This document shows positions 42,001-45,000 of a DNA stretch of 64,000 nt, one piece after another. The stretch is from Escherichia coli (lineage in GTDB: Bacteria; Pseudomonadota; Gammaproteobacteria; Enterobacterales; Enterobacteriaceae), in NCBI RefSeq assembly GCF_048403405.1, contig NZ_CP183129.1; one strand, given 5' to 3'. Positions within the stretch are counted from its first letter, which is position 1; every line of letters begins with the position of its first letter. The position numbers were made by a program.

Positions 42001-45000
42001 AGACAATCCCGCTTCAGACTGACGCTCTTGTACTCCGGTGTGGGCTGTGGTGGTGTGCCGGGCAACCGCAGCAGCATCAGCAGCGCCAGCACTGGGGCTG
42101 CCATCAGCAGCCCCAGTGGCGCCAGAGGATGAATGGCCAGCATTGCTGCCGCGCACAGCGGCCCGAATAGCCTGCCGCAACTCAGGCCGGAGCTGATGGT
42201 TGCCAGAGCGGCCATGCGATTCCCTTCTCCTGCTCTCTGCAATGCCCAGACCTGACAGGCTGGCACCATTGCCGACACGGTCAGCCCGTAGGCGATCCGG
42301 GCGATGATTAATATTCCCAGTCCCACCGCTGTTGTTATGGCGCTGGTAGCCATCAGCACGCTTCCCAGCCCTAGCAGGGTAAAGCTTATGCCATATCCTC
42401 CCAGAGCCCACAACACCACAGGTTTACTGCCAGTACGGGAAATTTGCTTTCCCCACCACGGGGACGATGGCAGAAACAGCATTGAGCCAAGCATCAGCAG
42501 GGCAGCCCATACAGACAGACTCAGATTTGTCTGTATGACCAGAACAGGGAGCACAACCAGCAGACCGTTCTGCCCGATACCGAGAAGCCCGGCACTGAAC
42601 GCAAGTGGCCAGCAGGACAGTGGTTTTTGGGGCGTATCTTCGATCCCAGGTGACATTTTAATGTTTCAACTCCATGTATTAATTGTGTTTATTTGTAAAA
42701 TTAATTTATCTGACAATAACATTTCTTATTGATAATGAGAATCATTATTGACATAATTGTTATTATTTTACTGTGTGGGAGCTGTTTGACTATGACCCTG
42801 CCCTCTGAAAAACCAGCCACAGATGTGGCTGCGCAGTGCTTCCTGAATGCACTGATTCGTGAAACCACAGACTGGAAACTGACAGAATACCCGCCAGACG
42901 AATTGATCATCCCGCTGGATGAGCAGAAATCGCTCCATTTCAGAGTGGCTTATTTCTCCCCAACCCAGCATCACCGCTTTGCATTTCCTGCACGTCTGGT
43001 CACGGCATCAGGCAGTTATCCTGTCGACTTTACCACTCTCTCCCGGCTTATTATTGATAAGCTACGGCATCAACTGTTTCTGCCCGTTCCCCTCTGCGAA
43101 ACTTTCCACCAGCGCGTGCTGGAAAGCCACGCCCATACGCAACAGGCAATTGATGCCCGTCATGACTGGACCGCCCTGCGTGAAAAAGCGTTGAATTTTG
43201 GCGAAGCTGAGCAGGCGCTGCTGACAGGACACGCTTTCCACCCTGCGCCTAAGTCTCATGAACCGTTTAACCGGCGGGAGGCTGAACGCTACCTGCCTGA
43301 TATGGCACCCCACTTCCCACTGCGGTGGTTTTCGGTGGATAAAACGCAAATCGCCGGTGAAAGTTTGCATCTCAACCTTCAACAGCGGCTGACGCGATTT
43401 GCCGCAGAGAATGCGCCTCAGTTACTCAACGAATTAAGTGACAACCAATGGCTGTTCCCGTTGCACCCGTGGCAGGGGGAATATCTTTTGCAGCAGGGGT
43501 GGTGCCAGGCACTTGTTGCTAAAGGGCTGATTAAAGACTTAGGTGAGGCCGGCACGTCGTGGCTGCCGACCACCTCTTCCCGTTCCCTCTACTGTGCCAC
43601 CAGCCGCGATATGATCAAGTTCTCCCTGAGCGTACGGCTGACCAACTCCATCCGTACTCTGTCCGTGAAAGAAGTGAAGCGTGGGATGCGCCTGGCACGC
43701 CTGGCTCAAACCGACGGCTGGCAGATGCTACAGGTCCGCTTCCCGACTTTCCGGGTAATGCAGGAGGATGGCTGGGCCGGGCTGCTCGATCTTAACGGCA
43801 ACATCATGCAGGAAAGTCTGTTTGCCCTGCGTGAAAATCTGCTGGTGGATCAGCCGAAAAGCCAGACCAACGTACTGGTCTCCCTGACTCAGGCCGCACC
43901 TGATGGCGGTGATTCGCTGCTGGTTTCGGCGGTAAAACGCCTGAGCGATCGCCTCGGTATCACTGTGCAACAGGCCGCCCATGCATGGGTCGATGCATAC
44001 TGTCAGCAAGTGCTAAAGCCGCTGTTTACGGCTGAAGCGGATTACGGCCTGGTGCTGCTGGCGCATCAGCAAAATATTCTTGTCCAGATGCTTGGGGATC
44101 TGCCGGTCGGATTTATTTACCGTGACTGTCAGGGCAGCGCTTTTATGCCTCACGCGACAGACTGGCTCGATTCTATTGGCGAGGCGCAGGCGGAAAATAT
44201 TTTCACCCATGAGCAGTTGCTGCGCTATTTCCCTTATTACCTGCTGGTTAACTCCACTTTTGCTGTGACCGCTGCGCTGGGGGCTGCCGGGCTGGACAGC
44301 GAATCGAATCTGATGGCTCGTGTACGAGCATCGCTGGCTGAAGTGCGTGATCAGGTGACTCATAAAACCTGTCTCAACTACGTGCTGGAAAGTCCGTACT
44401 GGAACGTAAAAGGTAACTTTTTCTGTTATCTGAACGATCATAACGAGAACACCATTGTTGACCCTTCGGTGATCTATTTCGATTTCGCTAACCCGCTGCA
44501 GGCTCAGGAGGTCTGAATGTCTGAGGCAAACATTATTCACAGCAGATATGGACTGCGCTGTGAAAAACTCGACAAGCCCCTGAATCTTGGCTGGGGACTG
44601 GACAATAGCGCGGTGTTGCACTGTCCCGGGGAGCTGCCAACAGGGTGGCTGTGCGATGCGCTGGATCAGATATTTATCGCCGCACCACAACTGTCAGCAG
44701 TGGCTCTCCCCTGGGCCGAATGGTGTGAGGAGCCACAGGCGCTGACGCTTTTTGGGCAGGTAAAAAGCGACATTATCCATCGTACCGCCTTCTGGCAGTT
44801 ACCGTTATGGTTGAGTTCACCGGCAAACCAGGCCTCCGGTGAAATGGTTTTTGATGCAGAGCGTGAGATTTATTTCCCGCAGCGCCCACCCCGTCCGCAG
44901 GGTGAGGTTTACCGCCGTTACGACCCACGTATTCGCAGGATGCTGAGTTTCCGCATTGCCGATCCCGTTTCTGATGCAGAACGTTTCACCCGCTGGATGA

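What the first reader, a model, noticed from the sequence alone, without database searches (positions are those of the whole stretch)
42657..42792. iucA promoter with Fur box; the tracked iucA ORF starts at a TTG inside the operator
The Fur box GATAATGAGAATCATTATT lies at 42731..42749 and the supplied ORF begins at 42729, which would put the start codon inside the operator. ATG at 42792 gives the expected 574-aa IucA. shiF is transcribed divergently from the same region, so both may be iron-regulated.
Basis: partly seen in the sequence, partly recalled or inferred. Interest (0 to 1): 0.3.

Follow-up and report, generated by a model that had tools for sequence, protein, structure and literature searches.

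The report
Fur-repressed iucA/shiF divergent promoter
This is the textbook iron-repressed (Fur) promoter of the aerobactin siderophore operon.

Summary

- **Fur box:** GATAATGAGAATCATTATT lies at 42731..42749. It is the only site within 3 mismatches of the consensus in 64 kb, where 0.01 is expected.
- **The TTG:** TTG 42729 is in frame with ATG 42792 and gives 595 aa instead of 574 aa. This TTG is the first three bases of the P1 −35 hexamer (TTGATA, 17 nt, CATAAT), so P1 mRNA predicted to start near 42764 would not contain it.
- **Evidence against the TTG start:** it has no Shine-Dalgarno (+0.7 kcal/mol, against −6.5 for the ATG). The 21-codon extension evolves like non-coding DNA in diverged lineages. 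The solved IucA structure and RefSeq both begin at the ATG.
- **Legacy annotation:** the 595-aa form persists in public records such as AAN82075.1.
- **Published experiments:** the 901 bp around the site are 100% identical to CFT073. Fur ChIP-seq and RNA-seq in that strain place peaks on exactly this motif and show derepression of iucA (119-fold) and shiF (32-fold) in a fur mutant.
- **Small addition:** a conserved candidate shiF promoter has its −35 (42741..42736) inside the same Fur box. That would explain how one operator controls both genes. It is not mapped experimentally.

The parts
42731..42749 (.). Primary Fur box GATAATGAGAATCATTATT (17 of 19 matches to the consensus)
   Evidence: It is the only site within 3 mismatches in 64 kb, with 0.01 expected. 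The identical motif is reported under the Fur ChIP-seq peaks for iucA and shiF in CFT073. It starts exactly 61 nt before the iucA ATG in five lineages.
42729..42734 (+). P1 (iucA) -35 hexamer TTGATA; its first three bases are the spurious TTG 'start codon'
   Evidence: Promoter scan gives 10 of 12 matches plus a TG extension. The hexamer is invariant in five lineages. A review citing de Lorenzo 1987 states that the Fur sites overlap the -35 and -10 of P1.
42752..42757 (+). P1 -10 hexamer CATAAT (CAAAAT or CAGAAT in other lineages); 17-nt spacer; predicted TSS near 42764
   Evidence: A2 and T6 are conserved in all five lineages. The five-lineage minimum score is 7.2, reached by 0.3% of column shuffles. 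The TSS is predicted, not mapped here.
42752..42770 (.). Weaker Fur-like site CATAATTGTTATTATTTTA (13 of 19) over the P1 -10 and +1, one of several overlapping 12-13 of 19 sites at 3- or 6-bp steps
   Evidence: This agrees with the published secondary site and clustered sites. By sequence alone the flanks are not enriched over shuffles (p=0.34).
42777..42781 (+). Shine-Dalgarno GGGAG for iucA, 10 nt before the ATG
   Evidence: The anti-SD duplex is -6.5 kcal/mol, against +0.7 for TTG 42729 and +1.9 for ATG 42735.
42792..44516 (+). iucA coding sequence, 574 aa (aerobactin synthetase IucA)
   Evidence: RefSeq CDS WP_001299620.1 maps to 42792..44516. PDB 5JM7 aligns from this Met. Pfam domains IucA_IucC and FhuF are present. 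The 574-aa form is seen on at least 1000 contigs.
42729..42791 (+). 21-codon in-frame extension; non-coding (promoter, operator and 5' UTR), not part of IucA
   Evidence: Third-position changes are only 2-4 of 13-18, and synonymous versus non-synonymous codon changes are 0-2 versus 9-10. The CDS gives 29-54 versus 15-37. Fisher p is 0.0001-0.05 in the diverged pairs. There is no SD and no match in the solved structure.
42736..42741 (-). Candidate shiF promoter -35 hexamer TTCTCA (TTCCCA in Klebsiella), inside the Fur box and 1 bp from the P1 -35
   Evidence: It is the top minus-strand candidate at the same position in each lineage. The five-lineage minimum score is 5.0, with the next best at 1.0, and 2.7% of column shuffles reach it. 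Inferred, not mapped.
42713..42718 (-). Candidate shiF promoter -10 hexamer TATTGT (TAGGAT or TAGAAT elsewhere), 17-nt spacer, predicted TSS near 42706 and a leader of about 50 nt
   Evidence: T1, A2 and T6 are invariant in five lineages while the middle bases vary and the flanks diverge. Inferred.
41463..42656 (-). shiF, 397-aa MFS transporter and auxiliary aerobactin secretion factor
   Evidence: RefSeq annotates an MFS transporter here. Pfam MFS_1 matches. Deleting shiF halves aerobactin secretion in strain S88. It is a Fur target in CFT073.

Best explanation

When iron is plentiful, Fe2+-Fur binds the 19-bp box at 42731..42749 and spreads over adjacent weaker sites. This covers the -35 (42729..42734) and -10 (42752..42757) of the sigma-70 promoter P1, so RNA polymerase is excluded. 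When iron is scarce, Fur leaves and P1 fires from about 42764. The resulting mRNA has a leader of about 28 nt carrying GGGAG, and IucA is translated from ATG 42792 as 574 aa.

The upstream TTG at 42729 is the -35 hexamer itself. By the promoter prediction it is not on the P1 transcript, it has no ribosome-binding site, and it is a legacy over-extension.

shiF is repressed through the same box. Most likely its own promoter has its -35 (42741..42736, minus strand) inside the box and its -10 at 42718..42713.

Shown experimentally by others: Fur occupancy at this motif, and Fur- and iron-dependent expression of both transcription units. Shown here by computation: the anatomy, its conservation, and the non-coding nature of the extension. 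Inferred: the exact start sites of both transcripts and the shiF promoter.
For: - The Fur box is unique in the window.
- P1 hexamers match 10 of 12 with a TG extension, and the TTG is part of the -35.
- The region is 100% identical to CFT073 over 901 bp, and RefSeq starts iucA at 42792.
- CFT073 Fur ChIP-seq peaks carry this very motif at the matching coordinates. In delta-fur, iucA rises 119-fold and shiF 32-fold.
- shiF is iron-induced and described as sharing the Fur box in pS88.
- A review citing the original footprints places both Fur sites on the -35 and -10 of P1. A long clustered operator is reported for ColV-K30.
- PDB 5JM7 IucA starts at the equivalent Met.
- Box-to-ATG distance is 61 nt in five lineages, including Pantoea.
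- The extension is not coding-like.
- SD energies favour ATG 42792.
- Only two conserved promoter configurations exist, P1 and the minus-strand candidate.
Against: - I could not read the primary S1-mapping and footprinting papers, so the P1 start site is predicted from the hexamers rather than taken from data.
- From memory (Bindereif & Neilands 1985), a minor upstream promoter P2 exists. A P2 transcript could include the TTG, so translation from it is not formally excluded, only made unlikely by the missing SD and the non-coding evolution.
- The 21-codon frame stays open in all five aerobactin lineages. I attribute this to constraint on the operator and promoter sequence.
- The shiF promoter is a prediction. 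Its -10 in E. coli (TATTGT) is weak, and its conserved bases could instead belong to the extended Fur operator.
Confidence: 0.93

Rival explanations
1. IucA really starts at TTG 42729 (595 aa) or at the in-frame ATG 42735 (593 aa), as in the original CFT073 annotation. The Fur box would then lie inside the coding sequence.
For: The frame is open for 23-24 codons upstream of the ATG in five lineages. The 595-aa form is deposited as AAN82075.1, in a UniRef entry and in the Salmonella record CP022660.1. From memory, a minor upstream promoter P2 might transcribe the TTG.
Against: - The TTG is the P1 -35 hexamer, so by prediction it is not on the main mRNA.
- Neither upstream start has an SD (+0.7 and +1.9 kcal/mol).
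- The substitution pattern is non-coding.
- In Cronobacter a stop lies 9 codons upstream.
- The solved IucA structure aligns only from the equivalent of ATG 42792, and from memory that recombinant enzyme was active.
- Current RefSeq uses 42792, and the 574-aa form is far more common.
Confidence: 0.02
2. shiF is Fur-regulated, but from a different promoter than the one proposed. One alternative is the minus-strand site with its -10 TAAAAT at 42770..42765 (start near 42758), where Fur would act as a roadblock downstream of the start. Another is an unrecognised promoter in the conserved block 42673..42706.
For: The simple scan lists TAGTCA-16-TAAAAT at 42792..42765, matching 9 of 12. The block 42673..42706 is unusually conserved and unexplained. 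Fur ChIP cannot resolve which promoter is used.
Against: The 42770 site is not conserved as a promoter: its five-lineage minimum score is 0.7, against 5.0 for the proposed site. Its conservation is also confounded by the iucA translation-initiation region. No conserved promoter-like configuration appears in 42673..42706 on either strand. The scan hit near 42682..42655 would start transcription inside shiF.
Confidence: 0.3
3. shiF iron regulation is indirect, for example through another regulator or RyhB, and does not come from Fur binding at the shared box.
For: No mutational analysis of the box with a shiF reporter was found in the papers I could read. Expression data alone cannot separate direct from indirect control.
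Against: A Fur ChIP-seq peak assigned to shiF contains the box, and shiF is classed as a direct target. The delta-fur delta-ryhB value equals the delta-fur value (32 and 32), so RyhB is not required. The only conserved minus-strand promoter candidate overlaps the box.
Confidence: 0.05

Closest known systems
Aerobactin promoter and operator of plasmid pColV-K30 (P1 with primary and secondary Fur sites; de Lorenzo et al. 1987, Escolar et al. 2000)
   Same: The 19-bp Fur box, the P1 -35 TTGATA, the -10 CATAAT, the spacer and the box-to-ATG distance are all identical. A ColV-type plasmid copy differs at only 2 of 63 nt between the TTG and the ATG. Published statements place the Fur sites on the -35 and -10 of P1 and describe a long clustered operator.
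   Different: This copy is chromosomal, in a pheV-type pathogenicity island of a CFT073-like UPEC strain, and is about 94% identical to ColV copies over 901 bp. There are small amino-acid differences at the IucA N-terminus (MTLPSEKP against MILPSEKS).
CFT073 iucA-shiF (c3627-c3628) Fur ChIP-seq target (Banerjee et al. 2020, PMC7157518)
   Same: The sequence is 100% identical over 42300..43200. The motif and coordinates match exactly.
   Different: The window as a whole is from a close relative, not CFT073: 99.76% identity over 60 kb plus an extra IS110-family element.
Divergent Fur-controlled promoter pairs of the enterobactin cluster (fepA-fes, fepB-entC, fepD-entS)
   Same: Two back-to-back transcription units for siderophore synthesis and transport are repressed by Fur from a shared intergenic region. 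These pairs are cited as bidirectional footprinted regions.
   Different: fepB-entC has two separate protected regions. Here a single strong box appears to cover the -35 elements of both promoters. That arrangement is inferred for shiF, not mapped.
Y. pseudotuberculosis iucABCD-iutA promoter (PMC8319957)
   Same: A Fur box TGATAATGATAACCACTATT lies about 64 nt before the iucA ATG, and Fur binding was confirmed by EMSA and lacZ fusions. The geometry is the same as here.
   Different: It is a more diverged species and I did not examine its sequence directly.

Membership tests
Fur operator (Fur box) of Enterobacteriaceae | Close match to the 19-bp consensus GATAATGATAATCATTATC | tested here: met
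   17 of 19 matches at 42731..42749. It is the only site within 3 mismatches in 64 kb, with 0.01 expected.
Fur operator (Fur box) of Enterobacteriaceae | Overlaps the core promoter elements of the repressed gene | tested here: met
   The box lies between and over the P1 -35 (42729..42734) and -10 (42752..42757). A weaker 13-of-19 site covers the -10 and +1.
Fur operator (Fur box) of Enterobacteriaceae | Fur occupancy in vivo or in vitro | not testable with these tools
   Published evidence exists. Fur ChIP-seq peaks in CFT073 contain this motif at matching coordinates, and footprints on the ColV-K30 copy are cited.
Fur operator (Fur box) of Enterobacteriaceae | Derepression of the flanking genes without Fur or iron | not testable with these tools
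   Published evidence exists. In CFT073 delta-fur, iucA rises 119-fold and shiF 32-fold. On pS88, iucA rose 16- to 45-fold and shiF 8- to 14-fold in the three test conditions.
Aerobactin synthetase IucA (NIS synthetase, IucA/IucC family) | IucA_IucC domain plus C-terminal FhuF-like domain, with close identity to characterised IucA | tested here: met
   Pfam PF04183 (1.6e-44) and PF06276 (6.4e-34) match. PDB 5JM7 IucA aligns over residues 22..594 of the 595-aa ORF at 1197 bits.
Aerobactin synthetase IucA (NIS synthetase, IucA/IucC family) | First gene of an iucABCD-iutA operon | tested here: met
   iucB, iucC, iucD and iutA follow directly at 44517..50741.
Genuine N-terminal coding extension (TTG 42729 start) | Ribosome-binding site upstream of the start | tested here: not met
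   The anti-SD duplex is +0.7 kcal/mol at TTG 42729 and +1.9 at ATG 42735, against -6.5 at ATG 42792.
Genuine N-terminal coding extension (TTG 42729 start) | Purifying selection with third-position bias across homologues | tested here: not met
   Synonymous versus non-synonymous codon changes are 0-2 versus 9-10 in the extension, against 29-54 versus 15-37 in the CDS.
Genuine N-terminal coding extension (TTG 42729 start) | Start codon present on the main transcript | tested here: inconclusive
   The TTG is the P1 -35 hexamer, so it lies about 35 nt upstream of the predicted P1 start. The TSS is predicted, not measured, and I could not check the recalled minor promoter P2.
ShiF (MFS transporter linked to aerobactin) | MFS fold, with the gene divergent from and adjacent to iucA | tested here: met
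   Pfam MFS_1 matches at 5.5e-19. The same arrangement is seen in E. coli, Klebsiella, Salmonella, Cronobacter and Pantoea loci.

The most novel reading that the evidence does not exclude
A single 19-bp Fur box represses two back-to-back promoters whose -35 hexamers sit 1 bp apart on opposite strands: P1 at 42729..42734 on the plus strand, and a hitherto unmapped shiF promoter at 42741..42736 on the minus strand with its -10 at 42718..42713. One Fur dimer array would then switch off siderophore synthesis and its auxiliary exporter together. The strongly conserved block 42673..42706 in the predicted shiF leader would be an additional, still unexplained control element.
Probability: 0.55. Interest if true: 0.2.

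Novelty: already known. Interest (0 to 1): 0.08.

Why it matters
Its value is mainly as quality control. The aerobactin promoter is the sequence from which the Fur-box consensus was originally derived, so finding it here is expected.

The practical point is that the 595-aa IucA is a mis-start that places a "start codon" in a −35 hexamer. That form is still present in GenBank and UniRef (AAN82075.1, and ATI93614.1 in Salmonella). Pipelines that use the longest ORF will reproduce the error.

The only forward-looking item is the predicted shiF promoter sharing the Fur box. It gives a concrete, inexpensive 5′ RACE and mutagenesis test of how aerobactin synthesis and its auxiliary exporter are co-regulated in UPEC and hypervirulent Klebsiella.

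Tried and rejected
- **Primary papers not held.** I tried de Lorenzo 1987, Escolar 1998, 1999 and 2000. P1 start-site coordinates and the mapping of M10930 numbering onto the window therefore remain unverified. A search for P1/P2 descriptions found nothing usable, and one search failed on a short term.
- **Genome-wide DNA-pattern scan.** Anchoring on the conserved half of the Fur box was too unspecific. It returned 120 capped hits, nearly all unrelated. Only two carried the aerobactin locus, and of those Pantoea stewartii was useful.
- **Extra Fur sites in the flanks.** Overlapping 11-13 of 19 sites exist, but they are not enriched over composition-matched shuffles (p=0.34). The "long operator" therefore cannot be confirmed from sequence alone.
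- **Promoter-like hit TTAATA-16-TAAAAT (42682..42655, minus strand).** Rejected as the shiF promoter, because transcription would start inside shiF.
- **Minus-strand site with −10 at 42770..42765.** Not conserved as a promoter.
- **Conserved plus-strand P2-like promoter.** None was detected.
- **uORF in the shiF leader (42675..42658).** It is not conserved in ColV or Klebsiella by direct reading, so I dropped it.
- **NCBIfam.** No equivalog hit for IucA or ShiF. Pfam sufficed.
- **Rfam.** No known RNA family in the region.

Full report
**The observation.** GATAATGAGAATCATTATT is at 42731..42749. A TTG is at 42729 and an ATG at 42792, 63 nt apart and in frame. The mechanical ORF list gives 42729..44516 as 595 aa, so the ATG gives 574 aa. 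The box differs from the 19-bp Fur consensus at two positions. It is the only site within three mismatches in the 64-kb window, against 0.01 expected from dinucleotide-preserving shuffles. On the minus strand, a 397-aa ORF at 41463..42656 is the divergent neighbour. It matches Pfam MFS_1. The finding's span is therefore the complete 135-bp intergenic region.

**Identity of the locus.** The 901 bp at 42300..43200 are 100% identical to many uropathogenic E. coli chromosomes, including CFT073. They are about 94% identical to ColV-type plasmids and about 83% to Klebsiella virulence plasmids. In the CFT073 RefSeq record the flanking genes are an MFS transporter (shiF) and iucA-iucB-iucC-iucD-iutA, followed by sat and iha. 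iucA is annotated from the position equivalent to 42792. The window as a whole is from a close relative rather than CFT073 itself: 99.76% identity over 60 kb, plus an extra IS110-family element.

**What the TTG really is.** The promoter scan finds a strong sigma-70 match on the plus strand: TTGATA at 42729..42734, a 17-nt spacer with a TG extension, and CATAAT at 42752..42757, matching 10 of 12. The "start codon" TTG is the first half of this −35 hexamer. Transcription from this promoter would begin around 42764, about 35 nt downstream of the TTG, so the main mRNA would not contain it. This is the promoter known as P1. A review citing the original footprinting states that both Fur-binding sites lie within P1, overlapping the −35 and the −10. 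An information-theory study describes the ColV-K30 operator as an exceptionally long cluster of overlapping sites. I could not obtain the primary papers, so the start site is my prediction from the hexamers.

**Independent tests of the start codon.**
- **Ribosome binding.** The anti-Shine-Dalgarno duplex is +0.7 kcal/mol before TTG 42729 and +1.9 before the in-frame ATG 42735. It is −6.5 (GGGAG at 42777..42781, 10 nt spacing) before ATG 42792.
- **Evolution.** I compared the window with ColV, Klebsiella and Salmonella copies. The 63-nt extension carries 13–18 substitutions in the diverged pairs, of which only 2–4 are at third positions, and 9–10 of 10–12 changed codons are non-synonymous. The first 600 nt of the true CDS show the usual third-position and synonymous excess. 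Fisher p ranges from 0.0001 to 0.05 in the diverged pairs.
- **More distant locus.** In the Cronobacter locus a stop codon lies nine codons upstream of the ATG.
- **Protein.** The solved K. pneumoniae IucA structure (5JM7/5JM8) aligns to residues 22–594 of the 595-aa ORF, so it starts at the equivalent Met. Nothing matches residues 1–21.

The frame does stay open in all five aerobactin lineages. I attribute this to constraint on the operator and promoter sequence, not to coding.

**The over-extension is real in databases.** The exact 595-aa sequence exists as AAN82075.1 (IucA of CFT073, original annotation), as a UniRef entry and in others, on 235 contigs. The 574-aa form is on at least 1000 contigs. 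A Salmonella plasmid GenBank record also calls a 595-aa IucA.

- Its supplementary tables list peaks NC_004431.1:3468986-3469337 (iucA) and 3469051-3469290 (shiF).
- Both peaks carry the motif GATAATGAGAATCATTATT at positions that convert to 3469185..3469203. By the coordinate relation, this is exactly window 42731..42749.
- In Δfur, iucA rose 119-fold and shiF 32-fold, and both are classed as direct Fur targets.

Earlier work on the ColV plasmid pS88 reported shiF induction of 8- to 14-fold in the three test conditions, which included iron-depleted broth. It stated that shiF "shares the same Fur box" with the aerobactin operon. A follow-up showed that deleting shiF halves aerobactin secretion.

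**Comparative anatomy.** I compared five lineages: the window, a ColV plasmid, a Klebsiella plasmid, a Salmonella plasmid and the Pantoea stewartii chromosome. Pantoea came from an otherwise unproductive pattern scan.
- The Fur box starts exactly 61 nt before the iucA ATG in all five.
- The P1 −35 TTGATA is invariant.
- The −10 keeps A2 and T6, reading CATAAT, CAAAAT or CAGAAT.
- A published Yersinia promoter has the same geometry.

**A small addition: the likely shiF promoter.** I scored every position and spacer on both strands and took the minimum score over the five lineages. Only two configurations stand out.
- P1 has a minimum of 7.2.
- A minus-strand site has a minimum of 5.0. Its −35 is TTCTCA or TTCCCA at 42741..42736, the spacer is 17 nt, and the −10 is TATTGT, TAGGAT or TAGAAT at 42718..42713.
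- The next best configuration scores 1.0.
- Column-shuffled alignments reach 7.2 in 0.3% of trials and 5.0 in 2.7%.

The three most informative −10 positions (T1, A2, T6) are invariant, while the middle bases vary and the flanks diverge. The −35 of this candidate lies inside the Fur box, 1 bp from the P1 −35. The predicted start near 42706 gives a leader of about 50 nt, with GGAG at 42673..42670. This would explain mechanistically how one box represses both units. It is an inference, and the conserved bases could equally belong to the extended Fur operator. Other minus-strand hits were rejected: one would start inside shiF, and the other is not conserved.

**What remains unclear.**
- Weaker Fur-like 19-mers overlap the main box at 3- and 6-bp steps (42725, 42737, 42740, 42752, with 12–13 of 19 matches). 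This matches the published clustered pattern. However, the flanks alone are not enriched over shuffles (p=0.34), so sequence alone cannot define the operator's extent.
- A strongly conserved block at 42673..42706 (core TATTTGTAAAATTAATT) has no assigned function. No conserved plus-strand promoter, such as the recalled minor P2, is detectable there.

**Verdict.** The feature is the archetypal Fur-regulated aerobactin promoter, and the TTG start is an annotation artefact. Fur control of both iucA and shiF is published for this exact sequence. Novelty: already known. Interest is low, and the only new and modest element is a testable prediction of the shiF promoter.

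Noticed in passing
window 42673..42706: This non-coding block (core TATTT[G/A]TAAAAT[T/A][T/A]ATT) is conserved across E. coli, Klebsiella, Salmonella and Pantoea, far better than the DNA on either side. It lies in the predicted shiF leader, upstream of P1. No conserved promoter-like configuration was found in it. It could be part of the extended Fur operator, the recalled minor promoter P2, or a site for another regulator.
   Followed up: partly
window 42729..44516, and L004 1738..3525: The 595-aa TTG-started IucA is deposited in public databases: AAN82075.1 from the original CFT073 annotation, a UniRef entry, and Salmonella ATI93614.1. It was seen on 235 contigs, against at least 1000 for the 574-aa form.
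   Followed up: yes
window 2076..3505: A roughly 1.4-kb insertion absent from CFT073 carries a 367-aa IS110-family-like transposase ORF (2349..3452, minus strand). The window is therefore from a close relative of CFT073 (99.76% over 60 kb), not CFT073 itself.
   Followed up: partly
window 61005..61023: A weaker Fur-like site ATAAATTATTCTCATTATT (13 of 19) lies 52-70 nt upstream of iha (61075..63165, plus strand). iha is listed as a direct Fur target in the CFT073 ChIP-seq study.
   Followed up: partly
window 42654..42659 (minus strand): The shiF start codon is not conserved. E. coli has ATG at 42656. Klebsiella, Salmonella and Pantoea have ACG there and a GTG one codon upstream. The RefSeq Klebsiella annotation instead picks an ATG 7 codons downstream.
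   Followed up: partly
window 48462..50741 and 51680..55579: The mechanical longest ORFs of iutA (GTG 48462) and sat (TTG 51680) also extend beyond the RefSeq starts: 48546 for iutA and 12 nt further in for sat. This is the same kind of over-extension as at iucA.
   Followed up: no
window 20166..20371 (minus strand) and 59115..59237 (minus strand): Rfam matches above gathering score. IS102 RNA (259.7 bits) lies immediately upstream of the Ag43 autotransporter ORF (17019..20147, minus strand). isrC Hfq-binding RNA (97.4 bits) lies among IS fragments near iha.
   Followed up: no
window 32406..41304: Immediately upstream of shiF lies a sialic-acid-type catabolic cluster, an unusual neighbour for a siderophore operon within the island. 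It encodes N-acetylneuraminate lyase, ManNAc kinase, an MFS transporter, a KdgM-family porin, Neu5Ac epimerase and sialate O-acetylesterase.
   Followed up: no
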